Part shown: positions 8,872 to 35,571 of the stretch, in pieces
Layout of the letters: each line of letters begins with the position of its first letter
Position numbering within the stretch: the first letter of the stretch is position 1
Source of the DNA: Vicinamibacterales bacterium
GTDB lineage: Bacteria; Acidobacteriota; Vicinamibacteria; Vicinamibacterales; UBA8438
Length of the DNA: 64,000 bases
Reading direction: 5' to 3'
Assembly (NCBI GenBank): GCA_965206285.1
Contig: OZ242205.1
Coordinates: 3,330,149-3,394,148 of the forward strand
Translations under genes and position numbers: made by a program
The notes under the pieces: generated by a model
Told to the model about the DNA's origin: nothing
Databases searched by the model: none
Seen by the model: the letters and a program-made list of their open reading frames with translations, nothing else

Positions 8872-11800
8872 TCAGCCTCTCGCGCGGCGGCGCAGCGCGC
8901 GTCCTCCCGTGCCGAGCAGCAGCAGGCCGAGTGCTATCGCGCCGGCCAGAGGCAATGCCGGTACGGGTAACGGCTCCGCGGTCGGCGTCGCCGTCACCTC
9001 CGCCGACGGCGGACCGTCGTTGGCGCCGGTCCGGGTCGCGATCACCCGCACCGTGTATTCCGTGCCGTTGGCGAGGCCGTCGATCGTGTGGGTCGTGGTC
9101 GACCCCGGAGCGACCGTGGCCTGCCGGGCGCCGGTGTCGTAGTCTTCGCCGCCCGACCTCCACTGCACCTTGTAGCCCGTGGCGTTGTCCACCGCCGTCC
9201 ACGCCACCACGAGCTGCGCGTTGCCCGGCGCGACCGTCACGCCCGTCACCCGGGCGGTGTCGTTGTCGTTCACCGTCACCGCCACGCCGGCGATCGTGAT
9301 GCCCTCGTAGTCGCTGTCCGGGCTCGTCGCGCCGTGGGTCAGCGAGACCGAATCGTCCGCCGTGTCCGCATCGTTGCCGGCCGTCACCGTAACCGTCCGG
9401 GCCGTGTCCCAGCTCGTCGCCGTGAAGGTCAGGGCGCCCGGGGTCGGGGTCACGTCCGTGCCCGCGTGCCCGGCGACCGTGACCGTGACATTCGCCGTCG
9501 GCCGGGTATCGAGGACCACCGTGTAGCTGTCCCCGGTCGGGTCCTCCTCCGGCACCGTCAGCGCCGACTTCGACACCGTGACCCCCGCCACGGTCGGCAC
9601 CGCCGGCGTCCCCGTCACCTCCGCCGCCGGCGGGCCGTCGTCGGCGCCGGTCCGGGTCGCGATCACCCGCACCGTGTATTCCGTGCCGTTGGCGAGGCCG
9701 GAAATCGTGTGGCGCGTGGTCGACCCCGAAGTGACCGTGGCCTGCCGGTCGCCGGTGTCGTAGACTTCGCCGCCCGACTTCCACTGCACCTTGTAGCCCG
9801 TGGCGTTGTCCACCACCGTCCATCTCACCACCACTTGCGAGTTACCCGGTGCGACCGTCACTCCCGTCACCTGCTCGAGGGGCTCGCTCGGCGGCGGCGG
9901 TGGCGGCGGGGGGGGCGGCGGGGACACCGTCGGCGTCCCCGTCAGCGGCGCCGACGGCGGGCCGTCGTCGGCGCCGGCCCGGGTCGCGATCACGCGCACC
10001 GTGTATGCCGTGCCGTTGGCGAGGCCGGGAATCGTGTGGCGCGTGGTCGACCCCGAAGTGACCGTGGCCTGCCGGTCGCCGGTGTCGTAGACTTCGCCGC
10101 CCGACTTCCACTGCACCTTGTAGCCCGTGGCGTTGGCCACCGCCGTCCAGGTCACCACCAGTTGCCCGTTGCCCGGTGCGGCCGTCACCCCCGTCACCTG
10201 CTCGAGGGACGGCGGCGGCGGAGCCTGCCCACAGTCGACGGTGATCACATGGTCGGCCGCATCGGAGGTGTGCCAGACGCGACCGGAACCAGAGAGCGTC
10301 TCGCACGAAAACCGATGCAGGTCAGGCTTGGTCCTGCGCTCTACCTCGCCAGTCAATCTCAGCTCAGGGCTGTTCCCAAGGGTTGGTTCATCGTCGTCCT
10401 CGACGGCCTTTTCCACCACCCCCGCGCTTCCCACAGACGTCCAGATCGCTCGGATCTGTCCGTCATCGGACACCGCACACGGCCGCGTGTCGTGCCGACT
10501 CGTTTCAACAAGAGCCAGCACGTTGTCGGCGTTGGGGTCCGAGTCGCACGCGAGTGCCGGGACCGTAACGTTCACCTTGTGGCCGGTCTTGGTGCTCCCC
10601 ACCGGGTGGGTGAGCACGGCGGTGAGCCCGCCCATCGTGCCCACGATCGCGTCCCCCGTGTCGAGCTTGATCGTGCGGTCCCCGAACCAGATGCCGTCGT
10701 CGTCCATGTCGTCTGCCACGACCGAGTAGCTGAACACGAGCGCCGGCGTGCCCGAGCCGCTCGACAGCGCGGCGCGCCGACGGGTCGGGGGAGGCGAGCC
10801 GTCGGTGCAGCTTCCTCCGTCCGAACTGCCCAGGCAGAACTCGAACTCCGGCGTGCCCGTGACCGTCACGGTCTGGTCGAAGGTCACCGTGAACTGGATC
10901 ATCTCGCCGGTCCCGTAAGATGTCGCCCGATCCGGCATCGAGGTGACGTCCACGTTGTTCACCGTCGGGGCGGTGTTGGTGCCGGTGCCCGTCGTCCCGG
11001 CGCCCGGGCCTGAGAATGGCCCGTCGCCGTCGGCGTTCACCGCGAGCACGTGCACCTGGTAGGACGTCGCCACCGTCAGGCTGGCGATGGTCGCCGTCGT
11101 CCCGGTACCTGTATGCGCATGGGTCAGCCAACTGCCGCTCGTGCCCGGCCGGTACTCCACCTTGTAGCCGGTGATCGCCGGGCGCCCCGTGTTGGCCGGC
11201 GCCGCCCAGCTCACGTCCAGGCTCGTCGTGCTCCCCGAGGTCGCCGTCACCGCGGGCATCGCCGGCGCCACCGGCTTCTCCACCGCGTTGTCGACGGTGA
11301 TCGTCACCGCGATCGTGGCCGAGCCGCTGTTGCCGTCGACGGCCTTCACCGCCACCGAATAGCTCGCCTTGGCCTCCCGGTCGTATTTCTCACCCACCTT
11401 CGTCCGGATCTGCCCGCTGCCGGAGACGATGCCGAACTTCGCCGCGTCCGCGCCTTCCAGGCTGTAGGTGAGCGTGTCGCCGGTGTCCGTGTCCGTCGCC
11501 GTCACCACGGCGCCCACGTTGCCCGCCGTCGAGACCGCCGCGTCGCCCACCGTCTCGGTGAAGGCCCGCGTCGTGCTGGCACCGTCCGTAAAGGTCGGAT
11601 TGGCGTTGCCCGCCGTATTGGTCGTCCCGGCGCCCGGGCCTGACCATGCCCCGTCGCCGTCGGCGTTCACCGCGAGCACCTGCACCTGGTAGGACGTCGC
11701 CGCCGTCAGGCCGGCGATGGTCGCCGTCGTCCCGGTGCCCGAATGCGCATGGTTCAGCCAACTGCCGCTCACGCCCGCCCGGTACTCCACCTTGTAGCCG

Positions 11801-12066
11801 GTGATCGCCGGGCGCCCCGTGTTGGCCGGCGCCGCCCAGCTCACGTCCAGGCTCGTCGTGCTCCCCGAGGTCGCCGTCACCGTGGGCATCGCCGGCGCCA
11901 CCGGCTTCTCCACCGCGTTGTCAACGTTGATCGTCACCGCGATCGTGTCCGAGCCGCCGTTGCCGTCGTCGGCCTTCACCGTCACCGAATAGCTCGCCTT
12001 GGCCTCCCGGTCGTATTTCTCACCCACCTTCGTCTGGATCTGCCCGCTCGGCTCTCGGGACGATGC
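8872..12066 (-). pseudogene. Adhesin A: giant cadherin-like/FN3-repeat surface protein with exosortase-type C-terminal sorting signal, 5'-truncated
   Basis: ORF 8872-12027 (1051 aa). Cadherin-like modules (TATDTDTGDTLTYSLEGADAAKFGI...GQIRTKVGEKYDREAKASYSV), FN3 modules (GYKVEYR x2, GYKVQW x3), a poly-Pro linker and a Calx-like module. The tail is AEPLPVPALPLAGAIALGLLLLGTGGRALRRRARG. No signal peptide. Homology stops at about 12066, at a heptamer tract. Confidence 0.75.
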
Positions 12067-12099
12067 TCTCGGCTCTCGGCTCTCGGCTCTCGGCTCTCG
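12065..12099. repeat. Heptanucleotide tandem repeat (GCTCTCG)x5
   Basis: Read directly: gctctcg x5 at 12065-12099, plus an isolated cggctctcgg at 12049-12058. The same unit occurs at 22575 (x1) and 27391 (x3). Confidence 0.9.
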
Positions 12100-12233
12100 G
12101 GCGAATTACACGCGACATTCCAGAATATTGCCGAAATCACCGCCGGCGGGCGGAAGGGGGAGAACCGATGACCGATCGCGACCGGACGGCGGCCGAGAAC
12201 GAGGCGCTGCGCGCCCGCATCTCCGCCCTCAGC
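12100..12233 (+). pseudogene. GAF-sensor gene stub 1 (last ~65 bp of promoter plus first 22 codons)
   Basis: 12100-12167 matches 27740-27809. ATG at 12168 gives MTDRDRTAAENEALRARISALS, identical to the start at 27810, then diverges at 12234. Confidence 0.6.
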
Positions 12234-12289
12234 GTGGATGGCCCCCAACGGCGACGGACCGCGGAACCACCCGCGGCTGAAGGGACCTC

Positions 12290-12620
12290 GACCTGCCGGC
12301 GCTCGGCACGCCGAACCGCCCGGCGCCCCTCGTCACCGGCAGCCTGCTGTTCCTCGGCGAGGGGAGCGACGCCATCATCGGCACCCAGCGCGGCGACGGG
12401 GACCCGTCCGACCCCGAGCAGGACCAGTCCTGGCGGTGGGGCCGGACGTTCCGGGCCTACGACAAGGCCACGGGCGCGGTGGTCTGGGAGCAGGACCTGC
12501 CGGCCGGCACCACCGGCGGCCCCAATGACCTACCTGCACGAGGGCCGGCAGTACATCGTCGTCGCGGTCGGCGCCCGCGGCGAGATTCCGAGTGGGTCGC
12601 CCTGGCCCTGCCTTAGTTAG
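12290..12620 (+). pseudogene. C-terminal remnant of a PQQ-dependent (quinoprotein) dehydrogenase
   Basis: VTGSLLFLGEGSD...FRAYDKATGAVVWEQDLPAGTTGGP in one frame and PMTYLHEGRQYIVVAVGARGEIP in another. Confidence 0.5.
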
Positions 12621-12915
12621 GACACTGACGGAAATTGCCTTGCCGTGTGCCAAGCGCGCGAAACCGCAAAAACCGGCTGTGGGGCCGCGCCGCCGGCCAC
12701 CGCGCCCACACCCCCGAACACCGCATCTGACCAAGTCTCGGTCGTCTCGGATCCGACCCCTGCACCGGCCCCGCCGGTGACGGCACGATTCGCCCCGACG
12801 GTGCTGTCTTCGACCGCCGCGCACTCCGAAGCGCGACGAGCTGAGACGCCGATTCCGGCACCCCCGGACGCGCTATGATGGTCCCGCGACCATCAAGGAA
12901 CGGGAGAACACCGAC

Positions 12916-13473
12916 GTGGCCACCACGCAACCCGTCGTCAAGTTCACGTACGAGGACTACCGCACCACGCCAGCGGACGAGCGCTACGAGCTGCTCGACG
13001 GTGATCTGATCATGGTTCCCGCCCCGAATCTCAAGCACCAGAGGGTGCAAGGAAACCTGTACTACCACCTGCGATTCTTCATCACGGAGCATGACATCGG
13101 GGAGCTGTTGCCCGCCCCCTGCGACGTCGTTCTGTCCGACACCAACGTCGTACAGCCAGACCTTCTGTTCATCTCCCGGCAACGCGAGCATCTACTGAGC
13201 GGCGGCGAGAACGTGCGGGGTGCGCCGGATCTGGCGATCGAGATTCTGTCGCCGTCCACGGCGGACAAGGACCGGGGGGTCAAGCGCGAACTCTACGGCA
13301 GACACGGCGTGACGGAGTACTGGCTGGTCGACCCAATAGCCGAGACCGTCACGATCCACCGCCAGCAAGCGGGCAAGCTGACGGCCACCCAGACCTTCGG
13401 CCGGGAAGAGACGCTCCGCTCCCCGCTCCTCGATGGCCTCAAGCTCCACCTGGACGACATCTTCTCGTCGTAA
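12916..13473 (+). CDS. Uma2-family (DUF820) restriction-endonuclease-fold protein
   Basis: YELLDGDLIMVPAPNLKHQRVQGNL...PDLLFISRQR...APDLAIEILSPSTADKDRGVKRELYGRHGVTEYWLVDP. Confidence 0.85.
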   Translation: MATTQPVVKFTYEDYRTTPADERYELLDGDLIMVPAPNLKHQRVQGNLYYHLRFFITEHDIGELLPAPCDVVLSDTNVVQPDLLFISRQREHLLSGGENVRGAPDLAIEILSPSTADKDRGVKRELYGRHGVTEYWLVDPIAETVTIHRQQAGKLTATQTFGREETLRSPLLDGLKLHLDDIFSS

Positions 13474-19812: not shown

Positions 19813-22562
19813 CAGCAAGCTCCCGACCGTCCCGCTGCCCCGGCACCTTCACCCACGGTCATGTTCCGCGATCCCCTCGCAATCGAAAAGTGCCGGCTCG
19901 AATCCATCCTCTGGGCGCGTCGCATCGCCGGGGGCGGTCGGTCGCAGGACTGATGCTCGCTCGGTCCGACCCGCGCCGCCGCAGGCCACACTGGAGGCCG
20001 GGATCTGGTCGTCGGGAACGGCAGCGTTGGCTGCGCCGGCTCCGTCTGGCCGCCGAACTCTCGTTGGGCTAGAATCGGAACCCATTGGAACACGCTCGGC
20101 CGGAGCCTGGAGCGCGTCGAGCGACGGACGATACAGCCCCTGGGAAAACTCATGAGTGTTATAGCAAAGGCAATCGCCGACCGCCAAAGTGAGATCGAGC
20201 GCCTGCAGGCGGAAATCAAGGCGTTGAACGACGTCGACAAGATGCTCGGGACCTCCGCTCCGGCGAAGCCCGCGGCTCGGCGCTCCTCCTCGCGGCGGCC
20301 GGCGGCTGCGGCCACCCCGGTCGCGGAGACCGCGTCCGACGCCAAGCCGACGAGGAAGCGCCGACCGATGACGGCCGAAGAGAAGAAGGCGGTTTCCGAG
20401 CGGATGACAGCCTCTTGGGCCGAGCGCAGAAAGAAAGCCGCGAAGTAGCCCGCCGGGGCCGCGACGAGTACGTGCCCGTCCGCGGTCGGTGTATCCTTCT
20501 GACCGCAGATCTTCCGAGGTCGTTCCCGCCACGCGGCGCGTCGAGCCAAGCGTCGACCCGCGCGGCCTCGTGGCCCGGCTGGGGGGCGTCGCGCCGTCCG
20601 CCCCCGGCCGGCACAACCAGCCCAGCGCGGGCCGCCCAATCGCCTGGAGCCCGTGCCGAGCAGCAGCAGACCGAGGGCTATCGCGCCGGCCACGGGCAAT
20701 GCCGGCACGGGTATCGGCTCCGCGGTCGGCGTCCCCGTCACCTCCGCCGACGGCGGGCCGTCGTTGGCGCCGGTCCGGGTCGCGATCACCCGCACCGTGT
20801 ATTCCGTGCCGTTGGTGAGACTGTCGATCGTGTGGCGCGTGGTCGACCCCGGAGCGACCGTGGCCTGCCGGTCGCCGGTGTCGTAGTCTTCGCTGCCCGA
20901 CTTCCACTGCACCTTGTAGCCCGTGGCGTTGTCCACCGCCGTCCAGGTCACCGCCAGGTGCGCGTTGCCCGGTGCGACCCCCACCCCCATCACCTGGCCG
21001 GGGGCGGTGGTGGTGGCGGGCAGGCTCAGACGCAGCGTTACGGTGTCGCCGGAGGACCAGGAGAGGCCGGTAACAAAGATGAATGCGAGACTTGAGGTGC
21101 GTCCCAGTGCGGACCAGAAGTCAAGATCCGCAGCGCAGACATGTAGCCGCAGCCCGGCCCTATCCCCGGCCGTGAGTCTGGTATTGGTCGTGGCAAAGGT
21201 CAGCACCGGCCGCCTCAACGAAACCAGCCCGATCGTGTATTCGTTCGCACGGACGGTGAAGGTCTGGTCGTCCAGGCTGCCGAAGCTCCCGCTCTCGTAA
21301 CCGAACGCGCCAGCCTTGTCGGGATCGACGGCCACCGTCATCGAACTGGTCCAGATCACGTTGCGGCCGCTCAGGGCGGGGACGGCGCAGGCGGCCGTCC
21401 CCGCCGCGGCCACCGGCGCCGTCGGCTCGCTGGTGAGCGTCTCGGTATTGGCGCCGTCGTCGGCGAAGGTCACCCTCACCTTGATCGTCTTGCCCAGGTC
21501 GGCGTCGACCAGGGTGTAGGTGTTCGAATTCGCGCCCGAAATGTTGGCATCCGTGCCGTTCACCCGGATCCACTGGTACTCGTACATGGGGCTGGTCAGC
21601 CCGTCCGCATCCGTGATGCCGGTGGTGGCCGCCGTCAGCGTCTGGCCCAACTGCGCCGTGCCCGCGATGGTCGGCGCGCCCATCGCCGCGTTGTTCGCCG
21701 GCGTCACATTGACCGTCATCGTGTAGGCGCTGTCGCTGTCGACCGTGCCGTCGTTCACCTTGAAGGTGAAGGTCGTGTAGGGAGTGCCGCTCCCGCCCGT
21801 CACCGGGGTGAAGACAAGCTTGCTCGCGTCGATGTCGGCCTTCGTGACGGCCAGGTTCGCCGTGACCGCCGTGCCGTCGTACGTCAGCGAGCCCACCCCC
21901 GGCAGCGTCACGATCCTCACGCTCGCCAGCGTGTCGCCGGTGTCCGTGTCGGCGAAGCCGAAGTCGTCCGCCTCGAAGGCGTACGCGCTGTCTTCGCCCG
22001 TCGTCAACGTCTTGTCGGCCGCCGTCGGCGCGGTGTTGGTGGAGGCGGCGGTGAGCTTGACCGTGATGTCGGTGCCGGCGGTCAGGGAGACGCCAGAGCT
22101 GTCCCAGATCCTGCTGCGGGCGGTGATGGTGTCGGCGTCGGCGAGGACGAGGGAGGTGCTGCCGACCACGAGGGTGAGGGCGGCGGTGGCGGTGGTGATG
22201 TCGGCGTCGACCTCGAAATCGAGACTCTCCGTCGGAGCGGACGAAGAGCACGGTGATGTTGTAGTCGGTGGAGTCGTGGTTGAAGCTGTCTTCGGAGAGG
22301 ACGGAGGTGCTGCTGCATCGCGCGGTGTCGACGCCGTTGGTGCAGCCGAGGGCGCCGAAGCGCTGAGGTCGGCGGGGGTGAGGGTGGCGGTCCAGACCTC
22401 GGTCTGGGCCTGCGCGGGCGCGGCCAGGGCCAGCAGCGTGGCGGCGGCCAGCAGGGCCACGCAGGCCCGCGCGCCACGCAGCAGGGTTGCGGCGTTGTCA
22501 CGCGGGCGGAGCCGCCGCCGCAGGGAGGACCGGTGCGGTTCGCTTGCGCTCAGCCGAGACAT
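19548..22562 (-). CDS. Adhesin B: cadherin-like/FN3 surface protein with signal peptide. The ORF lacks a stop after the sorting signal and reads through about 350 extra codons.
   Basis: Starts MSRLSASEPHRSSLRRRLRPRDNAATLLRGARACVALLAAATLLALAAPAQAQTEVWTATLTP. One GYKVQW FN3 module. Sorting module AEPIPVPALPVAGAIALGLLLLGTGSRRLGGPRWAG ends at ~20619. Downstream of that point the ORF is antisense to gene 20152-20448. Confidence 0.7.
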   Translation of the reverse strand: MSRLSASEPHRSSLRRRLRPRDNAATLLRGARACVALLAAATLLALAAPAQAQTEVWTATLTPADLSASAPSAAPTASTPRDAAAPPSSPKTASTTTPPTTTSPCSSSAPTESLDFEVDADITTATAALTLVVGSTSLVLADADTITARSRIWDSSGVSLTAGTDITVKLTAASTNTAPTAADKTLTTGEDSAYAFEADDFGFADTDTGDTLASVRIVTLPGVGSLTYDGTAVTANLAVTKADIDASKLVFTPVTGGSGTPYTTFTFKVNDGTVDSDSAYTMTVNVTPANNAAMGAPTIAGTAQLGQTLTAATTGITDADGLTSPMYEYQWIRVNGTDANISGANSNTYTLVDADLGKTIKVRVTFADDGANTETLTSEPTAPVAAAGTAACAVPALSGRNVIWTSSMTVAVDPDKAGAFGYESGSFGSLDDQTFTVRANEYTIGLVSLRRPVLTFATTNTRLTAGDRAGLRLHVCAADLDFWSALGRTSSLAFIFVTGLSWSSGDTVTLRLSLPATTTAPGQVMGVGVAPGNAHLAVTWTAVDNATGYKVQWKSGSEDYDTGDRQATVAPGSTTRHTIDSLTNGTEYTVRVIATRTGANDGPPSAEVTGTPTAEPIPVPALPVAGAIALGLLLLGTGSRRLGGPRWAGCAGRGRTARRPPAGPRGRAGRRLARRAAWRERPRKICGQKDTPTADGHVLVAAPAGYFAAFFLRSAQEAVIRSETAFFSSAVIGRRFLVGLASDAVSATGVAAAAGRREEERRAAGFAGAEVPSILSTSFNALISACRRSISLWRSAIAFAITLMSFPRGCIVRRSTRSRLRPSVFQWVPILAQREFGGQTEPAQPTLPFPTTRSRPPVWPAAARVGPSEHQSCDRPPPAMRRAQRMDSSRHFSIARGSRNMTVGEGAGAAGRSGACCQSSSPVSSVTPVRSRCTPIQGGAAGAAWTTARGCFPAVPRAARYSRNVLGLLSGAGSAGAVSSWSSPCWSIITVRLPGGVSSSPLGS
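20152..20448 (+). CDS. Small basic coiled-coil protein (possible nucleic-acid binding)
   Basis: MSVIAKAIADRQSEIERLQAEIKALNDVDKML...KRRPMTAEEKKAVSERMTASWAERRKKAAK. Lower GC. A TAGAAT box at ~20069 lies upstream. Confidence 0.55.
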   Translation: MSVIAKAIADRQSEIERLQAEIKALNDVDKMLGTSAPAKPAARRSSSRRPAAAATPVAETASDAKPTRKRRPMTAEEKKAVSERMTASWAERRKKAAK

Positions 22563-22722
22563 GACGCACCCCGTCGGCTCTCGGCGTGACGGCCGGTTCT
22601 TCTGGAGTACGATTCATTTCTGAAGAACAAACTCATTCCGGTGCTCCCACTCCCTGACAGTTCCGGCATGCTCGAAACCGGTCCGCACGATTCAGGCGGC
22701 CGAGGCCCCGGAGCCCTCCACG
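22563..22722 (-). promoter_or_regulatory. Conserved adhesin 5' leader, copy B (no AT-rich promoter attached)
   Basis: 22563-22722 aligns with 27379-27624 apart from the extra heptamers and a ~78-nt insertion in copy C. It contains the stem GTTCTTC(19 nt)GAAGAAC at 22596-22629. Confidence 0.5.
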
Positions 22723-23135
22723 GCGAGCCTGCGCATCAGCGCCAGCCTCGGCCTCGAGACGGTGCTGAACGAGGTCGTCGAGAGCGCCCGGGCCCTCACC
22801 GGCGCGCGCTACGGCGCCCATCGCCACCATCGACGAGGCCGGCGCCCCCCAGGACTTCGTCACCTCGGGCTTCACCGCGGACGAGCACCGGCACATCGTG
22901 GAATGGCCCGACGGGCCGCGGCTCTTCGAGCTCTTCCGCGACCTGCCGGAACCGCTGCGCATCCCCGACGTGCCCGCCCATGTCCGCGCGCTCGGCTTCT
23001 CGCCCGACCGGCGGCTGCCCTCGAAGACCTTCCAGGGCACGCCGATGCGCCACCTCGGCGTCCATGTCGGCAACTTCTACCTGGTCGAGAAGGCGGGCGG
23101 GGAGGCGTTCACGGACGAGCGCGGGGTCGGCTACC
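22723..23135 (+). pseudogene. GAF-sensor gene stub 2 (lacks promoter and first ~25 codons; frameshifted)
   Basis: SLRISASLGLETVLNEVVESARALTGARYG, then an extra C in the run at 22817-22819, then EWPDGPRLFELFRDLPEPLRIPDVPAHVRALGFSPDRRLPSKTFQGTPMRHLGVHVGNFYLVEKAGGEAFTDERGVGY. It ends at the duplication joint 23135/23136. Confidence 0.65.
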
Positions 23136-26100
23136 AGCCCAGCGCGGGCCGCCCAATCGCCTGGAGCCCGTGCCGAGCAGCAGCAGGCCGAGGGCTATCG
23201 CGCCGGCCACGGGCAATGCCGGCACGGGTATCGGCTCCGCGGTCGGCGTCGCCGTCACCTCCGCCGACGGCGGGCCGTCGTTGGCGCCGGTGCGGGTCGC
23301 GATCACCCGCACCGTGTATTCCGTGCCGTTGGCGAGGCCGTCGATCGTGTGGGTCGTGGTCGACCCCGGAGCGACCGTGGCCTGCCGGGCGCCGGTGTCG
23401 TAGTCGTCGCCGCCCGACCTCCACTGCACCTTGTAGCCCGTGGCGTTGTCCACCGCCGTCCAGGCCACCACGAGCTGCGCGTCGCCCGGTTCGACCGTCA
23501 CCCCCGTCACCCGGGCGGTGTCGTTGTCGTTCACCGTCACCGCCACGCCGGCGATCGGGATGCCCTCGTAGCCGCTGTCCGGGCTCGCCGCGCCGTGGGT
23601 CAGCGAGACCGACTCGTCCGCGGTGTCCGCATCGTTGCCGGCCGTCACCGTCACCGTCCGGGCCGTGTCCCAGTCCGTCGTGGTGAAGGTCAGGGCGCCC
23701 GGGGTCGGGGTCACGGCCGTGCCCGCGTGCCCGCCGACCGTGACCGTGACATTCGCCGTCGGCCGGGTATCGAGGACCACCGTGTAGCTGTCCCCGGTCG
23801 GGTCCTCCTCCGGCACCGTCAGCGCCGACTTCGACACCGTGACGCCCGGCGTGGTCGGCACCGCCGGCATCCCCGTCACCTCCGCCGCCGGCGGGCCGTC
23901 GGCGGCCCCGGTCCGGGTCGCGATCACCCGCACCGTGTATGCCGTGCCGTTGGCGAGGCCGGAAATCGTGTGGCTCGTGGTCGACCCCGAAGTGACCGTG
24001 GCCTGCCGGTCGCCGGTGTTGTAGTCCTGGCCGCCCGACTTCCACTGCACCTTGTAGCCCGTGGCGTTGTCCACCGCCGTCCATCTCACCACCACTTGCG
24101 AGTTACCCGGTGCGACCGTCACTCCCGTCACCTGCTCGAGGGGCTCGCTCGGCGGCGGCGGTGGCGGGGGCGGGGGCGGCGGCGGCGGGGACACCGTCGG
24201 CGTCCCCGTCATCTCCGCCGACGGCGGGCCGTCATCGGCGCCGGTCCGGGTCGCGATCACCCGCACCGTGTATTCCGTGCCGTTGGCGAGGCCGGGAATC
24301 GTGTGGCTCGTGGTCGACCCCGAAGTGACCGTGGCCTGCCGGTCGCCGGTGTCGTAGCCCTGGCTTCCCGACCTCCACTGCACCTTGTAGCCCGTGGCAT
24401 TGTCCACCGCCGTCCAGGTCACCACCAACTGCGCGTCGCCCGGCGCGACCGTCACCCCCATCACCCGGGCCGTGGCGTTTACCGCCGGCGTCCCCGTCAT
24501 CTCCGCCGACGGCGGGCCGTCGTCGGCGCCGGTCCGGGTCGCGATCACCTGCACCGTGTATTCCGTGCCGTTGGCGAGGCCGGGAATCGTGTGGCTCGTG
24601 GTCGACCCCGGAGTGACCGTGGCCTGCCGGTCGCCGGTGTTGTAGCCCTGGCTTCCCGACCTCCACTGCACCGTGTAGCCCGTGGCGTAATCCACCGCCG
24701 TCCACGTCACCACCAGCTGCGCGTTGCCCGGTGCGACCCCCACCCCCGTCACCTGCTCGAGGGACACCGTCGGCGTCCCCGTCATCTCCGCCGACGGCGG
24801 GCCGTCGGCGGCGCCGGTCCGGGTCGCGATGACCTGCACCGTGTATTCCGTGCCGTTGACGAGGCTGTCGATCGTGTGGCGCGTGGTCGACCCCGAAGTG
24901 ACCGTGGCCTGCCGGTCGCCGGTGTTGTAGCGCTGGCTCAGGGACCTCCACTGCACCTTGTAGCCCGTGGCGTTGGCCACCGCCGTCCAGGTCACCACCA
25001 GTTGCCCGTTGCCCGGTGCGACCCCCACCCCCGTCACCTGCTCGAGGGGCTCGCTCGGCGGCGGCGGAGCCTGTCCACAGTCGACGGAGATCCGATGGTC
25101 GGCCGCATCGGAGGTGTGCCAGACGCGACCGAAACCAGAGAGCGTCTCGCACGAAAACCGATGCAGGTCAGGCTTGGTCCTGCGCTGTACCTCGCCAGTG
25201 AATCTCAGCTCATCGCTGTTCCCAAGGGTTGGTTCATCGCCGCCCTCGTCGAACTTTTCGACAAACAACGCGCTTCCCTCGGACGTCCAGATCGCTCGGA
25301 TCTGTCCGTCATCGGACACCGCACACGGCAGCGTGTCGTGCCGACTCGTTTCAACAAGAGCCAGCACGTTGTCGGCGTTGGGGTCCGAGTCGCACGCGAG
25401 TGCCGTGACCGCAACGTTGACCTTGTGGCGGGTCCTGGCGCCCACCTCCTGGTGGGTGAGCACGGCGGTGAGCCCGCCCATCGTGCCCACGATCGCGTCC
25501 CCCGTGTCGAGCTTGATCGTGCGGTCCTGATTCCCGGCCCAGATGCCGTTGTCGTCGATGTCGTCTGCCACGACCGTGTAGCTGAACACGAGCGCCGTCG
25601 TGCCCGAGCCGCTCGACAGCACGGCGCGCCGACGGGTCGGGGGAGGCATGCCTTGGGTGCAGCTTCCTGCGCCCGAACTGCCCAGGCAGAACTCGAACTC
25701 CGGCGTGCCCGTGACCGTCACGGCCTGGTCGAAGGTCACCGTGAACTGGATCATCTCGCCGGTCTCGTAGACGGTGCCCGATGCCGGCATCGAGGTGACG
25801 TCCACGTTGTTCACCATCGGGGCGGTGTTGGTGCCGGTGCCCGTCGTCCCGCTGCCCGGGCCTGACCATGCCCCGTCGCCGTCGGAGTTCACCGCGAGCA
25901 CGTGCACCTGGTAGGACGTCGCCGCCGTCAGGCCGGTGATGGTCGCCGTCCTCCCGGTGCCCGTATGCGGATGGTTTATCCAATTGCCGCTCACGCCCGC
26001 CCGGTACTCCACCTTGTAGCCGGTGATCGCCGGGCGCCGGTGATCGCCGGGCCGTGTTGAAGAGCGGCGCCGCCCAGCTCACGTCCAGGCTCGTCGTGCT

Positions 26101-27378
26101 CCCCGAGGTCGCCGTCACCGTGGGCATCCCCGGCGCCAGCGGCTTCTCCACCGCGTTGTCAACGGTGATCGTCACCGCGATCGTGTCCGTGCCGCCGTTG
26201 CCGTCGTCGGCCTTCACCGTCACCGAATAGCTTGCCTTGGTCTCCCGGTCGAAGTTTAAACCACCCTGCGTCCGGATCTGCCCGCTGGAGTCGATGCTGA
26301 ACTTCGCCGCGTCCGTGCCTTCCAGGCTGTAGGTGAGCGTGTCGCCATCCGCGTCCGTCGCCGTCACCACGGCGCCCACGTCGACCGCATCGGGTTGAGC
26401 GGGGCCCACCGACTCGGTGAAGCTCCGGGTCGCCGTGGCGGTCCGCAAACACCGGGGGGGTGTTGGCCGCCGAGACCACGATATCGAAGGTGTCGCTGAC
26501 CGAGTCGGTGCCGTCGTTCGCCGTCACCTTTACCGAGACGGTCCCCAGGTCCGCGGTCGCCGGCGTGCCCGAGAACGTGCGCGTGGCGGCGGTGAAGCTC
26601 AGCCACGAGGGCAGCGCGGAATCGTCGGATTGGGTCGCCGTGTAGGTCAGCGTGTCGCCGGTGTCCGTGTCGGCGAACGTGTTGGCCGGAAACGCATAGT
26701 TGAGCGCCGTGCCCACCGTCGCCGTCTGGTCATCGATCGGGTTCGCCACCGTCGGGGCGGCGTTGGTGGAGGCGGTCAAGGTGAGCTTGACCGCGATGTC
26801 GGTGCCGACGGTCAGGGATGACGCCAGAGCTGTGCCCGACCCTCTTGCGAAAATACTGAATGGTGTCGGCGTCGGCGACCGGATCCGCAGTCCGGAGTCC
26901 GTGCTGCCGACCACGAGGGTGAAGGAGAACGACAAAATACGGTGGCGGTGGTGTCGTCGTGCGTCGTAAACGCTCGCCTGAATTCGAACTGTCGGTCAGG
27001 TCGGCGACCTCTACTCCAGGGAGCTCCAGAAGTGCCCTTGGTGATGTTGTAGTCGGTGGAGTCGTGAGTTGAAGCTTGTCGTTGGGACGAGGACTTCCGG
27101 AGGTGCCGCTGCATCGCGCGGTCGTAAATTGTTGACGCCGGTTAGGCTGATAGCCGCTGGATGCCGTTTGAGTTCTTGAGTTTGTCGCCGGGGGTGAGGG
27201 TGGCGGTCCAGACCTCGGTCTGGGCCTGCGCGGGCGCGGCCAGGGCCAGCAGCGCGGCAGCGGCCAGCAGGGCCACGCAGGCCCGCGCGCCACGCAGCAG
27301 GGTTGCGGCGTTCTCACGCGGGCGGAGCCGCCGCCGCAGGGAGGACCGGTGCGGTCCGCTTGCGCTCAGCCGCGGCAT
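23109..27378 (-). pseudogene. Adhesin C: largest cadherin-like/FN3 surface-protein paralogue. The 3' 2.9 kb is open; the 5' 1.4 kb is broken by several frameshifts and stops.
   Basis: Start at 27378 (MPRLSASGPHRSS...AQAQTEVWTATLTPGD) hits a stop at 27142. The remainder is spread over ORFs 26812-27114, 26730-27317, 26159-26935, 25351-26448 and 23109-26012. An indel/duplication lies at 26030-26060 (GGTGATCGCCGGGC twice). Five GYKVQW FN3 modules. The tail matches adhesin B. Confidence 0.75.
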
Positions 27379-27390
27379 GACGCACCCCGT

Positions 27391-27414
27391 CGGCTCTCGG
27401 CTCTCGGCTCTCGG
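27391..27414. repeat. Heptanucleotide tandem repeat (CGGCTCT)x3, 13 nt upstream of the adhesin C start codon
   Basis: Read directly: cggctct cggctct cggctct cgg. On the coding strand this is (GAGAGCC)3. Confidence 0.9.
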
Positions 27415-27460
27415 CGTTTCCCTCCGCTGCTGGCCGCAGCGCCGGGAAACGCCGAGAGCC
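27406..27460 (-). promoter_or_regulatory. Perfect 17-bp inverted repeat (hairpin) in the adhesin C leader
   Basis: GGCTCTCGGCGTTTCCC (27406-27422) pairs with GGGAAACGCCGAGAGCC (27444-27460). The 21-nt loop contains GCTGC/GCAGC. It is absent from the copy B leader. Confidence 0.6.
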
Positions 27461-27677
27461 GGCACAGCAAGTCCGGCCGGGCCGCCCGGCGGCGTGACGG
27501 CCGGTTCTTCTGGAGTACGATTCATTTCTGAAGAACAACCCATTCCAGTGCTCCCACTCGCTGACCGGCATGCCCGAAACCGGTCCGCACGATTCCGGCG
27601 GCCGAGGCCCCGGAGCCCTCCACGCGGCCCTGCCAGGCCCTCCCGCAAACCCGTCCCCACAAGATTTTGCTCCTGGT

Positions 27678-27809
27678 GATTATAGACGATAAGTTCGTTA
27701 AAATAACGTCTTTTATGACGTCGTCTACGCGAATAACTAGCGAATTATACGCGACATTACCGAATATCTCCAAAATCATCACCGCCGGCGGGCGGAAGGG
27801 GGAGAACCG
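27678..27809. promoter_or_regulatory. AT-rich divergent promoter island (adhesin C on the minus strand, GAF gene on the plus strand)
   Basis: The only strongly AT-rich stretch in the region. Perfect TATAAT on the minus strand at 27679-27684. Palindrome ACGTCTTTTATGACGT at 27706-27721. Phased 11-nt direct repeats GCGAATAACTA/GCGAATTATAC/GCGACATTACC/GAATATCTCCA at 27729-27772. GGAAGGGGGAG SD-like box before the ATG at 27810. Confidence 0.5.
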
Positions 27810-28323
27810 ATGACCGATCGCGACCGGACGGCGGCCGAGAACGAGGCGCTGCGCGCCCGCATCTCCGCCCTCAGCGCGGCCAGCCTGCGCATCAGCGCCA
27901 ACCTCGGCCTCGAGACGGTGCTGAACGAGGTCGTCGAGAGCGCCCGGGCCCTCACCGGCGCGCGCTACGGCGCCATCGCCACCATCGACGAGGCCAGCGT
28001 CCCCCAGGACTTCGTCACCTCGGGCTTCACCGCGGACGAGCACCGGCACATCGTGGAATGGCCCGACGGGCCGCGGCTCTTCGAGCTCTTCCGCGACCTG
28101 CCGGAACCGCTGCGCATCCCCGACGTGCCCGCCCATGTCCGCGCTCGGCTTCTCGCCCGACCGGCGGCGGCCCTCGAAGACCTTCCAGGGCACGCCGATG
28201 CGCCACCTCGGCGTCCATGTCGGCAACTTCTACCTGGTCGAGAAGGCGGGCGGGGAGGCGTTCACGGACGAGCGCGGGGTCGGCTACCGCATGGCCCGGC
28301 CCGGCGAGGCGGACGAGCCCTGA
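27810..28323 (+). pseudogene. GAF-sensor gene stub 3 (has promoter and start; 2-nt deletion; truncated)
   Basis: MTDRDRTAAENEALRARISALSAASLRISANLGLETVLNEVVESARALTGARYGAIATIDEASVPQDFVTSGFTADEHRHIVEWPDGPRLF...HVRA. A CG deletion near 28152 (relative to 22985) shifts the frame. The rest (LGFSPDRR...GGEAFTDERGVGY) lies in ORF 28135-28323. No kinase domain follows. Confidence 0.7.
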
Positions 28324-28501: not shown

Positions 28502-31051
28502 TTACGGCGTCAGCCGCTCCAGGCGCAGCAACCGGACGACCGGCTCGGCGGCGGCGCGCGAGGCGGCCAGGTCCACCTCGAGCTCGGCCACCCAGTCGTT
28601 GTGCCCCTTCGCGTCCACCAGCATCTGCTCCACCCGCCACGACGCGCCGTCGTCCGACGGCTCGGTATGCGTGTGCCGCCGGTTGCGGCCCTCGGGGTCC
28701 AGGCGCAGGCCGCCGTTCTCCGCCGCGAACGTCTCCCGCGCCCGCGCCAGCCGCTCGGCCGTCCAGGCCCCGCCGCCCCCGTCGAGTGCGGTGTCGAGGA
28801 GCTCGAGCGCGGCCTCGTCGTCGCCGGTCGACCAGGCGCGCAGCAGGGCGAACACGCGCGTGCGGATGGCGGCGGTGAAGGCGCGCGCATCGCGCGTCAC
28901 GTCGACCGGCTCGTCGCGGCCGGGCACGGCCGGTTCGGGCGCGCCCGCGGGCGCGGGCTGGAAGTCGGGGTCGCGCATCCGCTCCCATTCCTCGAGCAGA
29001 CTCGAATCCACCCGGCGCACGAGGTCCCGGAGATAGAGCTCCATCTCCACCACCTCGTCGGTCTTCATGCCGTCGGGCACCGTCTGCCGGAGCACCTTGT
29101 AGACGCTCGAGAGATGCCGCAGCAGCAGCCCCTCCATGCGTTCGAGGCCGTACTCCCGGACGTAGTCGGCGAACGAGAGGTAGGTCTCGAACATCTCCCG
29201 CGCGATCGACTTGGGCCGCACGTTCTCCTCGCCGACCCACGGGTGCCGGCCGGCGAAGTCGTTGAAGGTCCCGTAGACGAAGTCGGCGAGCGGCTTGGGG
29301 TGCTCCAGCTTCTCGAGCTCCGCCATGCGATCCTCGTAGTCGAGGCCGGCCGCCTTCATCTCGGCCACCGCCGCGCCCTTCAGCTTGTCGAGCTGACGGC
29401 GCAGGATGGCGGTCGGGTTCTCCAGGATGCTCTCCACGAGCGTGAGCAGATCGAGGGCGTGGTTCTCGGCGTCGGGGTCGAGCACCGGGATCGCCTCGAT
29501 GAGGTAGAGCGACAGCGCCTGGTCCATCGAGAAGTCGTCCTGGAGCTCGACGTTCACCCGCACCCGCGAGCCGTCGGGGGTGCGGGGCACGATCTCGACG
29601 ACCTTGCGCGCCACCAGGGCCCGGAAGAGCTGCCAGCCGCGGCGCCGGTGCGCCCGCTTCGCGGCGTCCGATTCGTGGCTGTCGCGCACGAGCTGGCGCA
29701 TCGCCCCGCAGCCGTCGCCGCGGCGCGACAGCACGTTGAGCAGCATGCCGTGCGAGACCGCGAAGCGCGACTTGAGCCGCTCCGGGCGGGCGCCGACGAG
29801 CCGTTCGAACGTTCCCCGGTCCCAGGGCGCGAAGTTGCCGCGCGGCGGCTGGCGCCGGACCACCTTCTTGCCGGCCTTCGCCTTCTCGGCGAGCCGCCGG
29901 TTCTCGATGACGTGCTCGGGGGCCTGGGCCACGACGTAGCCGCGGTCGTCGAAGCCCTTGCGCCCGGCGCGGCCGGCGATCTGGTGGAAGTCGCGGGCCG
30001 AGAGCACCGCCGTCTTCTCCCCGTCGTACTTCGAGAGGCGGCTGAAGAGCACGGTGCGAATCGGCACGTTGACGCCGACCCCCAGCGTGTCGGTGCCGCA
30101 GATGACCTTGAGCAGGCCCCGCTGGGCGAGCTGCTCGGCGAGCACGCGGTACCGGGGCAGCAGGCCCGCGTGGTGGATGCCGATGCCGTGCTTCAGCCAG
30201 GTGCGGACGCGGGGGCCGTACGGCGTCGAGAAGCGCACGTCCGCGATGGCCGCGGCCAGGGCCTGCTTCTCGGGGCGGGTCGCGATCTGCAGGCTCGTGA
30301 AGCTCTGGGCGCTCGTACCGGCGTCCTTCTGGGTGAAGTGGACCACGTAGACCGGGACCCGGTCCGCCTCGACCAGCCGTTCCACCGCCCGCGCAAGCGG
30401 CTCCTCGGAATAGGCGTACTCCAGCGGGACCGGCCGCTCGCTCGAGGTGACGGTCACCGTCGCCCGGCCCGTCCGCCGCGTGAGCTCCTGCTCGAAGAAC
30501 GACACGTCGCCGAGCGTCGCCGACATCAGCAGGAAGCGCGTCTGCGGCAGGGTCAGCAGCGGCGCCTGCCAGGCCCCGCCGCGGTCCCGGTCGGCGTACC
30601 AGTGGAACTCGTCCATCACCACGTCGTCCACCGCCGCCTGCTCCCCCTCGCGGAGCGCCATGTTGGCCAGGATCTCGGCCGTGCAGCACAGCAGCGGAGC
30701 GTCGCGGTTGACGGTGGCGTCGCCGGTGGCCAGCCCCACGTTCTCGGGTCCGAACTCGCGGCACAGGGCCATCCACTTCTCGTTGACGAGCGCCTTGATG
30801 GGACAGGTGTAGACCGAGCGCCGCCCGCGGGCGAGCGACGCGAAGTGCAGCGCGAACGCGGCCAGCGACTTGCCCGAGCCGGTCGGCGTGCTCAGGATGA
30901 CGTGCTGGTCCTCGAGCAGGGCCAGAATCGCCTCCTCCTGGGCGGGATAGAGAGTCAGGCCCAAGCGGTCGACGTAGTCGAGAAAGCGGTCCAGCAGATC
31001 GTCGCTGGACACCTCGCCGGACGGCAACAGGTCGAACAGGGGCGCGGTCAT
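28502..31051 (-). CDS. DEAD/DEAH-box helicase with DUF3516-type C-terminal region
   Basis: ATG at 31051 gives [10 protein letters not shown]... Walker [16 protein letters not shown] box, SAT-like MSATLG, then a long helical C-terminal region. ORF 28502-31201. Confidence 0.9.
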
Positions 31052-31170
31052 GCCGGAGATTGTCGCCCCACTGCGTCCGTTGGCGCCAATCCGCGGGACC
31101 GCGGACCGGCGGCGGGGCCCGCCCGCAGCGTCCCGGCGGCGTCTTGCCGCTGCCCGCCCGCGGCGATACG

Positions 31171-31815
31171 ATGGGCAACATGACGGTCGCCGACGCGGCA
31201 CCGGCCGCGACGCCCACGTCGCCGGAAGCGCTGCATGCCCTCCTGCGCGAGATCCTGCCGCCCCAGGGCGCCTGGAGCGACGAGGAGTACCTGTGGCTCA
31301 CGGACAGGTGCAAGCGTCTGGTCGAGTTCACCGACGGCCACGTTCAAGAGCTGCCGATGCCGACCTTCACCCACCAGGCGATCCTCGCGCTGCTCTATCG
31401 CCTGTTCCACGCGCATCTCGAGCCGCGCGGGGGCGTCGTGCTGTTCGCGGCGTTGCGGCTGCGCATCCGGGAGGGCAAGTTCCGCGAACCCGACCTGCTG
31501 CTGCTCCGCGACCGCTCGGATGCCCGCTGCCGGGACCGCTACTGGCTGGGTGCGGACCTGGTGGCCGAGGTCGTCAGCCCGGACGACCCGGACCGCGACT
31601 TGGTCGTCAAGCGCGCCGACTACGCCGAGGCGGGCATTCCGGAGTACTGGATCGTCGACCCCCGCAACGAGACGATCACCGTGCTCGCGCTCGAAGGGAC
31701 CGGATACGTCGAGCACGGCGTATTCGCGCCCGGCGACACGACGACCTCGCCGCTGCTCGCCGGATTCGCCGTCGACGTGACAGCCGTGTTCGACGCTCCG
31801 CGGTCCGGCGCCTGA
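31171..31815 (+). CDS. Uma2-family (DUF820) endonuclease-fold protein, second copy
   Basis: ATG at 31171. [20 protein letters not shown]...REPDLLLL...[38 protein letters not shown]. Confidence 0.85.
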
Positions 31816-35380: not shown

Positions 35381-35406
35381 TCAGCTAGTAGTTACCTAGT
35401 AGTTAC

Positions 35407-35571
35407 CTAGTGCACCCTCCGCAAGCCGCGGTGCTCCCCCTTCAAGGCGCTTCCCGCCAGCGGTTGCTCTGCGAGTCCGTCGATCGCGCGGACGATGCGT
35501 TGCCGGTCAGGCTCCGGAACCCGATCCAGGTCCCTGGCCGCGCTCCGCTTGATCCGGATCGAGTAGTGCAT
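35407..35571 (-). pseudogene. RelE/ParE-family toxin, truncated to its N-terminal ~54 codons
   Basis: MHYSIRIKRSAARDLDRVPEPDRQRIVRAIDGLAEQPLAGSALKGEHRGLRRV, then a stop inside the CTAG-rich joint. The beta-sheet/catalytic half is missing. Confidence 0.6.

What the first reader, a model, noticed from the sequence alone, without database searches (positions are those of the whole stretch)
27379..27414. Variable-number heptanucleotide repeat (GAGAGCC)n 13 nt upstream of the adhesin start codon
Seen: on the coding strand the start codons are preceded by CGCCGAGAGCCGACGGGGTGCGTC ATG. The GAGAGCC unit is present once before adhesin B (22575-22581), three times before adhesin C (27391-27411) and five times at the copy-A joint (12065-12099). 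A 7-nt unit shifts the frame by 1 per unit. In copy C the leader is open and in frame from an upstream ATG (27525, MNRTPEEPAVTP...) through the repeat (PRAESREP) into the annotated ATG. In copy B the same upstream ATG (22617) is out of frame. Length-variable 7-bp repeats in front of adhesin genes are an established expression rheostat or phase-variation device in Haemophilus influenzae hmw1A/hmw2A. Nothing comparable is familiar to me in a high-GC soil-type lineage.
Basis: partly seen in the sequence, partly recalled or inferred. Interest (0 to 1): 0.7.

Follow-up and report, generated by a model that had tools for sequence, protein, structure and literature searches.

The report
Variable heptamer repeat before adhesin-like genes
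A short 7-base repeat (GAGAGCC) sits just upstream of the start codon of a family of surface-adhesin-like genes and differs in copy number (0 to 5) between gene copies and related bacteria, but the tracts are short and the three genes in this window look broken, so it is an ordinary slippage-prone repeat, not a shown on/off switch.

Summary
On the minus strand, (GAGAGCC)n lies 13 nt upstream of the ATG, with n=3 in copy C, n=1 in copy B and n=5 at the copy-A joint. Coordinates are off by one at most. Unit dimers occur 6 times against 0.08 expected.

Nine homologous leaders from four independent metagenome assemblies share the same 13-nt spacer and signal peptide. They carry 0, 0, 0, 0, 0, 2, 3, 4 and about 5 units. 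Two of them are 91% identical and differ by one 14-nt indel, exactly two units. So copy number does vary.

The proposed mechanism is weakly supported:
- The upstream reading frame is not coding.
- Tracts are much shorter than the 11-63 units of Haemophilus hmw.
- Five of the seven leaders sharing copy B and C's upstream sequence have no unit.
- All three adhesin copies here, and their divergent regulator gene, are truncated or frameshifted.

My best reading is a slippage-prone repeat in a long 5' leader. One unit pairs with codons 2-4 to form a hairpin across the start codon. In silico, the first unit doubles the cost of opening the start region and further units add nothing.

Tandem GAGAGCC arrays are also common in other high-GC environmental genomes. 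I rate this a new member of a known kind, of modest interest.

The parts
27392..27412 (-). (GAGAGCC)3 tandem heptamer tract of copy C
   Evidence: Exact matches. TRF 3.7 copies at 100%. Sequence read.
27379..27391 (-). 13-nt spacer GACGGGGTGCGTC between tract and ATG. It holds a G-run (27385-27388) at Shine-Dalgarno distance.
   Evidence: Identical or nearly identical in 11 of the 12 leaders (copy A has no spacer; L180 reads GCCGTGGTGCGTC). The ribosome-binding role is inferred.
27142..27378 (-). Start codon, signal peptide and first 78 codons of adhesin copy C, ending in a premature stop at 27144-27142
   Evidence: Translation. Open-frame map.
23112..27378 (-). Adhesin-like copy C (fn3 and cadherin repeats, C-terminal anchor). 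It is split over three frames and has a stop, so it is a likely pseudogene.
27405..27461 (-). Near-perfect 57-bp palindrome (26-nt arms, 92% complementary, 5-nt loop). Its 3' arm ends in the first GAGAGCC unit.
   Evidence: RNA fold of 27360-27540 gives -104.2 kcal/mol, z = -5.1.
27413..27490 (-). 78-nt segment found only in copy C. With two extra units this makes 92 nt more than copy B. No copy found elsewhere in the DNA held.
   Evidence: Alignment A2. BLAST of the segment.
27491..27528 (-). Conserved 'class i' leader block GAAATGAATCGTACTCCAGAAGAACCGGCCGTCACGCC, containing the upstream ATG at 27525
   Evidence: Conserved in copies B and C and in L120 (two copies), L124, L125 and L180.
27744..27772 (-). 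Sigma-70-like promoter match (TGGAGA, 17-nt spacer, TATAAT) inside an AT-rich island at about 27640-27790
   Evidence: 10 of 12 positions match, 0.0 expected. Function is inferred. AT-rich islands lie 180-390 nt upstream of the ATG in L120, L122 and L180 too.
22576..22582 (-). Single GAGAGCC unit of copy B, 13 nt before ATG 22562
22553..22585 (-). Start-codon hairpin of copy B. GCCGAGA pairs with codons 2-4 (UCUCGGC) and GACG pairs with CGUC. The AUG sits in an internal loop and the G-run in the terminal loop.
   Evidence: Inverted repeat found. It is the minimum-energy structure in alleles with at least one unit.
20616..22562 (-). Adhesin-like copy B, the part homologous to the other copies. 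The open frame runs on to 19548 as unrelated sequence. A conserved Cys-rich segment at 22350-22216 is encoded out of frame.
12047..12100 (-). Heptamer array at the copy-A joint: (GAGAGCC)4, then GAGAGCA TCGTCCC, then one more GAGAGCC
8872..12048 (-). Adhesin-like copy A. It is 5'-truncated, begins at the equivalent of copy C position 26286, and has no ATG or signal peptide.
12101..12234 (-). Copy of copy C's promoter-proximal region (93% identical to 27740-27876; -10 hexamer reads TGTAAT) plus the first 22 codons of the divergent GAF gene. It abuts the array directly.
27810..28272 (+). Divergent partner gene. Only residues 1-154 of a 788-aa GAF-PAS-HisKA-HATPase-REC-OmpR-type protein remain, with a frameshift near 28140.
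   Evidence: Intact versions lie next to the adhesin in L121, L124 and L125.
22717..23119 (+). Second fragment of the same GAF regulator gene (residues 22-154, frameshifted), upstream of copy B

Best explanation
The tract is a slippage-prone simple sequence repeat. It lies near the 3' end of a long 5' leader of a paralogous family of secreted, membrane-anchored fn3/cadherin surface proteins, and it always ends 13 nt before the start codon.

Shown:
- The tract is real.
- Its unit number differs between paralogs and between homologous leaders, from 0 to 5, by whole units.
- One unit is complementary to codons 2-4 of the gene.

Inferred:
- Transcription starts in the AT-rich island roughly 180-390 nt upstream, so the tract is transcribed.
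- In the RNA, the unit next to the spacer pairs with UCUCGGCU just after the AUG, and GACG pairs with CGUC. This forms a hairpin across the ribosome-binding region.
- The likely effect is therefore on translation initiation or mRNA stability, not on reading frame.
- The effect is close to binary. The first unit matters and further units hardly do.

In this window the three downstream genes and the divergent regulator gene are truncated, frameshifted or carry a stop. The tracts here are most likely relics in a duplicated, decaying adhesin cluster, not a working switch.
For: - Tract and counts.
- Twelve leaders are in hand. The unit count is 5 (+1) for copy A, 1 for B, 3 for C, 0 for both L120 copies, 4 for L121, 3 for L122, 2 for L123, 0 for L124, 0 for L125, about 5 (interrupted) for L179, and 0 for L180.
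- L121 and L123 are 91% identical over 330 nt and differ by a single 14-nt indel, exactly two units.
- In 122 kb of DNA from this lineage, period-7 arrays of 3 or more copies occur only at these leaders.
- The hairpin is the minimum-energy structure in the alleles with at least one unit that keep the consensus start of the gene (B, L121, L122, L123; not copy C). The AUG has a paired probability of 0.00-0.04.
- The modelled cost of opening positions -11 to +6 is 6.7 kcal/mol at n=0, 14.1 at n=1, and 11.8-13.3 at n=2-6.
- The leader shows no coding-type GC bias.
- Pseudogene status.
Against: - No transcription start is mapped. If transcription starts downstream of the tract, the RNA model fails.
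- The hairpin is predicted, not supported by covariation. Copy C has two uncompensated changes in the 3' arm (ATGCCGCGG).
- The frameshifts could be long-read consensus errors in a repeated region. Related assemblies show many short, broken reading frames in the same gene family. The genes could therefore be intact.
- Upstream sequences fall into at least four unrelated classes that meet at the tract. Simple slippage alone does not explain that.
Confidence: 0.5

Rival explanations
1. The tract is a working contingency locus of the Haemophilus hmw1A/hmw2A type. Frequent gain and loss of units within a population tunes or switches adhesin expression.
For: - The 7-nt unit lies in the leader of surface-adhesin-like genes.
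- Unit number is polymorphic between homologous loci.
- Copy C's tract is part of a strong 5' hairpin, as in the hmw 5'-UTR (PMC12721329).
Against: - Only 0-5 units are seen, against a natural minimum of 11 in hmw. Slippage rates for such short tracts are expected to be low.
- Seven of the 12 leaders have 0 or 1 unit.
- In silico, units beyond the first have no graded effect.
- The genes in this window look defective.
- No read-level data are available.
Confidence: 0.12
2. The tract is mainly a fragile or recombination-prone site. Hairpin-forming heptamer arrays attract deletions and illegitimate or ectopic recombination. They therefore mark the joints where different upstream regions, or truncated gene bodies, have been fused to the conserved start region.
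For: - Upstream sequences of classes i, ii, iii and copy A share no detectable similarity (z about 0), yet all meet the common spacer and gene at the tract.
- In copy A the array is flanked on both sides by deletion endpoints: the promoter -10 region on one side and mid-gene on the other.
- Copy C carries a 57-bp palindrome next to the tract.
- The whole 8.8-28.3 kb region is a patchwork of duplications and fragments.
Against: - The sample is small (12 leaders).
- An ancestral tract with later divergence of the upstream sequence could give the same picture.
- No second array that could serve as a recombination partner is seen in the 122 kb examined.
- The mechanism is inferred.
Confidence: 0.2
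3. The repeats are binding sites for a protein. Candidates are the divergently encoded OmpR-type hybrid regulator or a single-strand-binding cold-shock-type protein.
For: - The adhesin gene is paired with a divergent GAF-PAS-kinase-receiver-OmpR-type gene in L121, L124, L125 and, as remnants, in this window.
- Cold-shock proteins can bind heptamer repeats (discussion in PMC4679880).
Against: - L124 and L125 have the intact regulator but no unit at all.
- A 7-bp period does not fit OmpR-type tandem sites. This rests on established knowledge, not on a test here.
- The tract lies next to the start codon, far from the AT-rich promoter island.
Confidence: 0.05
4. The tract counts are assembly or sequencing artefacts.
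For: - The related contigs are long-read metagenome assemblies.
- The gene family is highly repeated and full of broken reading frames.
Against: - All differences are whole perfect units.
- The same tract, at the same position, appears in five independent assemblies (the window and four ENA samples).
- The rest of the window has clean reading frames.
Confidence: 0.03

Closest known systems
Haemophilus influenzae hmw1A/hmw2A (ATCTTTC)n 5'-UTR repeat (PMC12721329)
   Same: Both have a 7-nt unit, tandem, upstream of an adhesin start codon and in a leader that forms a hairpin. Both differ in number between paralogs within one genome and between strains.
   Different: - The hmw repeat has 11-63 units, ten of which form one arm of the hairpin. 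Expression falls gradually with number, and RNase III processing is needed.
- Here there are 0-5 units. The unit sequence and the adhesin type are different (fn3/cadherin with a membrane anchor, not a two-partner-secretion adhesin).
- A single unit pairs with the gene's own codons 2-4.
- There is no experimental or population evidence here.
Long simple sequence repeats with 5-11 nt units in non-pathogen genomes (Mrazek et al. 2007, as summarised in PMC4679880)
   Same: Heptamers are the commonest unit, are mostly intergenic, are attributed to polymerase slippage, and occur in free-living high-GC bacteria. The genome scan here fits: (GAGAGCC)3 or longer occurs in at least 119 stretches.
   Different: In the 122 kb of this lineage examined, the array is not dispersed. 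It is tied to one position in one gene family's leader.
TAACTGA heptamer direct repeats upstream of start codons in marine Beggiatoaceae and cyanobacteria (PMC4679880)
   Same: Short sets of 2-6 heptamer direct repeats lie just upstream of translational starts. A role in translation was proposed but not shown.
   Different: The unit and lineage are different. There are hundreds of sets per genome across many gene classes, whereas here the tract is tied to one adhesin family.
Quasi-palindrome and REP-like hairpin elements
   Same: Copy C's 57-bp palindrome has arms that end in the heptamer. Palindromic elements with heptamer arms are seen in a Gemmatimonadaceae genome.
   Different: The 78-nt copy-C segment has no other copy in the DNA held, so it is not shown to be a dispersed element.

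Membership tests
Simple-sequence-repeat contingency (phase-variable) locus | Tandem short repeat inside or just upstream of a surface-structure gene | tested here: met
   The tract ends 13 nt before the ATG of fn3/cadherin surface-protein genes.
Simple-sequence-repeat contingency (phase-variable) locus | Unit number differs between strains or homologous loci by whole units | tested here: met
   0-5 units across 12 leaders. L121 and L123 differ by exactly two units in an otherwise 91% identical leader.
Simple-sequence-repeat contingency (phase-variable) locus | Tract long enough for high-frequency slippage | tested here: not met
   The maximum is 5 units (35 nt), and most leaders have 0-3. The hmw heptamer tracts have 11-63 units. 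No slippage rate was measured.
Simple-sequence-repeat contingency (phase-variable) locus | Length heterogeneity within a clonal population | not testable with these tools
   No reads are available, and the source genome is hidden from look-ups.
Simple-sequence-repeat contingency (phase-variable) locus | Expression depends on unit number | tested here: inconclusive
   Only in silico evidence exists. The cost of opening the start region is 6.7 kcal/mol at n=0 and 11.8-14.1 at n=1-6, with no gradient beyond the first unit.
Haemophilus HMW1/HMW2 adhesin system | Two-partner-secretion adhesin with hmwB and hmwC partners and an ATCTTTC repeat | tested here: not met
   Pfam finds fn3 and cadherin domains only. 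The neighbouring gene is a GAF-kinase-OmpR hybrid regulator. The unit is GAGAGCC.
Long intergenic simple repeats with 5-11 nt units (Mrazek class) | Unit of 5-11 nt, non-coding position, tandem run longer than chance | tested here: met
   Unit dimers occur 6 times against 0.08 expected. The leader is non-coding by third-position GC.
Known RNA families (Rfam) | Match to a curated covariance model | tested here: not met
   No match at gathering score anywhere in the window.

The most novel reading that the evidence does not exclude
In this uncultured high-GC lineage the heptamer tract could be a true contingency device for a very large adhesin paralog family, acting in two ways. First, gain or loss of the first unit would make or break a hairpin across the start codon, giving a binary translational switch. 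Second, the arrays would be preferred breakpoints at which whole upstream regulatory regions are exchanged between paralogs. That would extend repeat-based phase variation from host-adapted pathogens to free-living environmental bacteria.
Probability: 0.12. Interest if true: 0.6.

Novelty: new member of a known kind. Interest (0 to 1): 0.35.

Why it matters
Repeat-driven switching of surface proteins is well documented in host-adapted pathogens. It is hardly studied in free-living, high-GC environmental bacteria.

This family offers a simple test case. The tract sits at a fixed position, natural alleles with 0 to 5 units exist, and one unit is complementary to the first codons of the gene. The predicted effect on translation can therefore be tested with a few reporter constructs.

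If nothing comes of it, the tract is one more example of the common heptamer repeats of non-pathogen genomes. In that case the window mainly documents a decaying, duplicated adhesin cluster.

Tried and rejected
- **Source genome look-ups.** Exact-protein look-ups for window proteins and same-genome paralogs found nothing on record. Cluster look-up gave no names. The organism therefore stays unidentified. TonB-dependent receptors in a related contig suggest a Gram-negative envelope.
- **JGI metagenome scans.** The leader plus one unit gave 0 hits. A degenerate leader pattern gave 53 hits, all chance matches without the gene.
- **Rfam.** No family matched at gathering score.
- **NCBIfam.** No named sorting signal was found for the C-terminal anchor.
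- **Coding test for arrays in other genomes.** I tested whether arrays in other genomes lie in coding sequence by looking for spanning stop-free frames. This is uninformative in high-GC DNA, because the median spanning frame is 386 codons.
- **Dispersed-element test.** A BLAST of copy C's 78-nt insert matched only the repeat part elsewhere, so a dispersed mobile element is not supported.
- **Signal-peptide protein search.** It returned mostly short broken reading frames and only two further alleles consistent with n=0.
- **Transposase search.** A Pfam scan of reading frames between the copies found no transposase.
- **Upstream-ATG extension.** I rejected this as a coding N-terminal extension because of composition and lack of conservation across leader classes.

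Full report
**Observation**

On the minus strand both annotated start codons are preceded by ...CGCC(GAGAGCC)n GACGGGGTGCGTC ATG. Exact units lie as follows:
- Copy C: 27392-27412, three units.
- Copy B: 22576-22582, one unit.
- Copy A: 12071-12098, four units, followed by GAGAGCa. In the register CGAGAGC this is five perfect units at 12065-12099. One more unit lies at 12050-12056.

The single heptamer is not enriched in the window (21 seen, 15.5 expected). Tandem dimers are enriched (6 seen, 0.08 expected, 0 of 100 shuffles reach 6).

**The genes**

All three copies encode fn3 and cadherin-domain proteins. They have a long signal peptide and a C-terminal hydrophobic anchor with a basic tail.

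They sit in a patchwork of segmental duplications between about 8.8 and 28.3 kb. None looks intact:
- Copy C has a stop after 78 codons (27144-27142) and continues in two other frames.
- Copy B encodes a conserved Cys-rich segment out of frame (22350-22216). It loses homology at 20616, just before the normal stop.
- Copy A starts in mid-gene, at the equivalent of copy C position 26286, and has no ATG or signal peptide.

The divergent neighbour of copy C is the first 154 residues, with a frameshift, of a 788-residue GAF-PAS-HisKA-HATPase-REC-OmpR-type protein. A second fragment lies upstream of copy B, and 22 codons lie upstream of copy A.

The rest of the window (1-8.8 kb and 36-64 kb) has clean reading frames for ordinary metabolic genes. 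General sequencing error is therefore not the explanation. Local consensus errors in this repeated region cannot be excluded.

**Anatomy of the three leaders**

Copies B and C share a conserved block, GAAATGAATCGTACTCCAGAAGAACCGGCCGTCACGCC. Copy C then carries 92 nt more than copy B: a 78-nt unique segment (27413-27490) plus two extra units.

Within that segment is a near-perfect 57-bp palindrome (27405-27461, 26-nt arms, 92% complementary). Its 3' arm ends in the first unit. The leader RNA folds far better than shuffled sequence (z = -5.1).

A sigma-70-like promoter match lies at 27772-27744, in an AT-rich island about 270-390 nt upstream of the ATG.

In copy A, a copy of that promoter region (with TGTAAT as the -10 hexamer) abuts the array directly. 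The array in turn abuts mid-gene sequence.

**Relatives**

The source genome is a 6.89-Mb contig that is hidden from the look-ups. A protein search found hundreds of paralogs and orthologs in ENA long-read metagenome assemblies. I fetched nine homologous leaders from four samples.

All carry the same spacer and start region, GACGGGG[T/C]GCGTCAT[G/A] TCTCGGCTGAGCGC..., apart from L180, whose spacer is a variant (see below). The number of heptamers immediately upstream is:

| Leader | Units | Notes |
|---|---|---|
| L120, first copy | 0 | class i upstream |
| L120, second copy | 0 | class i upstream |
| L124 | 0 | class i upstream |
| L125 | 0 | class i upstream |
| L180 | 0 | class i upstream; spacer variant GCCGTGGTGCGTC |
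| L123 | 2 | CAGAGCC GAGAGCC |
| L122 | 3 | unrelated upstream sequence |
| L121 | 4 | two perfect and two variant units; start codon is ATA |
| L179 | about 5 | interrupted, and set 16 nt further from the spacer |

L121 and L123 are 91% identical over 330 nt and differ by a single 14-nt indel, exactly two units. Two further reading-frame translations are consistent with n=0.

In 122 kb of DNA from this lineage, period-7 arrays of three or more copies occur only at these leaders. Unit number is therefore truly variable at a fixed position in one gene family. It is low everywhere.

**Upstream sequence classes**

The sequences upstream of the tract fall into at least four classes with no detectable similarity to each other (z about 0):
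- Class i: copies B and C, both L120 copies, L124, L125 and L180.
- Class ii: L121 and L123.
- Class iii: L122.
- The copy-A joint. L179 is different again.

Every non-class-i leader has an array. Most class-i leaders have none. L120, L122 and L180, like copy C, have an AT-rich island 180-390 nt upstream of the ATG. I take these islands as the likely promoter regions, which is an inference. That would place the tract near the 3' end of a long 5' leader.

**How it may work**

The upstream-ATG and frame idea does not hold, for three reasons:
- The leader has no coding-type third-position GC bias.
- The upstream ATG exists in class i only.
- The n=0 alleles are in frame as well.

A different feature stands out. 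The unit is complementary to codons 2-4 of the gene. AGCCGAGA pairs with UCUCGGCU just after the AUG, and GACG pairs with CGUC in the spacer.

In four of the five natural alleles with at least one unit (B, L121, L122, L123) this two-part hairpin is the minimum-energy structure. Copy C, whose 3' arm carries two changes, folds differently. The AUG sits in a 3-by-3 internal loop and the G-run in the terminal loop.

I modelled the class-i leader with 0 to 6 units. The cost of opening positions -11 to +6 is 6.7 kcal/mol at n=0, 14.1 at n=1, and 11.8-13.3 at n=2-6. If the tract affects expression, the predicted effect is a step at the first unit, not a rheostat. This is a thermodynamic prediction only. 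Covariation support is lacking, and copy C has two uncompensated changes in the 3' arm.

**A second reading**

Unrelated upstream classes meet at the tract. Deletion endpoints flank the array on both sides in copy A. Copy C has a palindrome next to its tract. Together these suggest that the arrays are fragile or recombination-prone sites. I keep this as the main rival. It is compatible with the slippage reading.

**Comparison with what is known**

The closest functional analogue is the Haemophilus hmw1A/hmw2A (ATCTTTC)n repeat. That repeat is transcribed and forms one arm of a long 5'-UTR hairpin that RNase III processes. Its number sets adhesin level (PMC12721329). Natural hmw tracts have 11-63 units, against 0-5 here, and the adhesin type and partner genes are unrelated. 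This is a resemblance in layout, not family membership.

Heptamer repeats as such are not unusual. They are reported as the commonest long simple-repeat unit in non-pathogen genomes. Short heptamer sets upstream of start codons are described in Beggiatoaceae and cyanobacteria (PMC4679880).

I estimate that at most about two would be expected by chance, even at 70% GC. Many hits are in Gemmatimonadota, Methylomirabilota, Acidobacteriota, Poribacteria and Actinomycetota. Several genomes have multiple hits, and the arrays often form inverted pairs or sit next to stop or start codons. None of these stretches belongs to the window's genome.

**Verdict**

The interpretation as an hmw-like switch is only partly supported. 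The tracts are short, the frame argument fails, many homologous leaders lack the tract, and the genes in this window appear defective.

I rate it a new member of a known kind (a variable heptamer repeat in the leader of surface-protein genes), of modest interest. A concrete, testable hypothesis goes with it: the hairpin across the start codon.

Noticed in passing
L012, L022, L066, L076, L096, L109, L111, L113 (Gemmatimonadaceae MAG SMAG_U1859); also L078, L106, L119: This one genome carries many copies of a palindromic element. Inverted heptamer arrays, (GGCTCTC)n and (GAGAGCC)n, often mixed with GGCCATC or GATGGCC units, flank a conserved core of the form GGCACACSCCGAGAGCTCTC...GTGTGCC. It looks like a dispersed REP- or MITE-like family built from the same heptamer.
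   Followed up: partly
L121 2975-5338, L124 259-2625, L125 402-2768; window 27810-28272, 22717-23119, 12168-12234: The adhesin gene is repeatedly paired, head to head, with a gene of about 788 aa for a GAF-PAS-HisKA-HATPase-REC-OmpR-type hybrid regulator. The regulator is intact in three related contigs. In this window it is reduced to frameshifted N-terminal fragments.
   Followed up: partly
window 12235-12620: Immediately after the 22 codons of the GAF gene on the copy-A side, the sequence reads as the C-terminal part of a PQQ-dependent-dehydrogenase-like protein (AYDKATGAVVWEQDLPAGTTGGPMTY...), split over two frames. This is another gene fragment in the rearranged region.
   Followed up: no
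window 22216-22350 and 27040-27180; P0132 and other short ORFs from ENA contigs: The conserved Cys-rich N-terminal segment of these adhesins (GCSN..ARCSST..LSEDSF..DSTDY) is out of frame or scrambled in copies B and C. It is also broken in several independent metagenome contigs. This is either a recurrent real frameshift site or a systematic long-read consensus error.
   Followed up: partly
window 9889-9921 and 24150-24188: (CGG)n triplet runs encoding poly-proline linkers between fn3 domains differ between copy A (11 units) and copy C (13 units). The fn3 modules themselves form 285-327-bp tandem repeats (9598-10208; 24188-25048) with different copy numbers.
   Followed up: no
window 27503-27537; L124 and L125 just upstream of the leader: The conserved class-i block contains an inverted repeat: GTTCTTC, 19 nt, GAAGAAC in the window, and GTTCTTCGGAAGAAC in L124 and L125. 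It is a possible operator or RNA hairpin.
   Followed up: no
L121 6058-6060: In this otherwise conserved leader, which has 4 heptamer units, the start codon is ATA instead of ATG.
   Followed up: no
window 35385-35411 and 56761-56867: Two other tandem repeats. The first is a perfect 11-mer, CTAGTAGTTAC, in 2.5 copies, in the lowest-GC part of the window (35-36 kb, 61% GC). The second is an 18/36-nt G-rich repeat (GGCGGAG...) with 3-5 copies.
   Followed up: no
window 12781-13473 and 28502-31201: Between and beside the adhesin copies lie an Uma2-family putative endonuclease gene and a DEAD-box helicase gene with DUF3516. No transposase was detected in the window. Related contigs carry DDE and rve transposase genes next to their adhesin genes (L123, L124, L125, L180).
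   Followed up: partly
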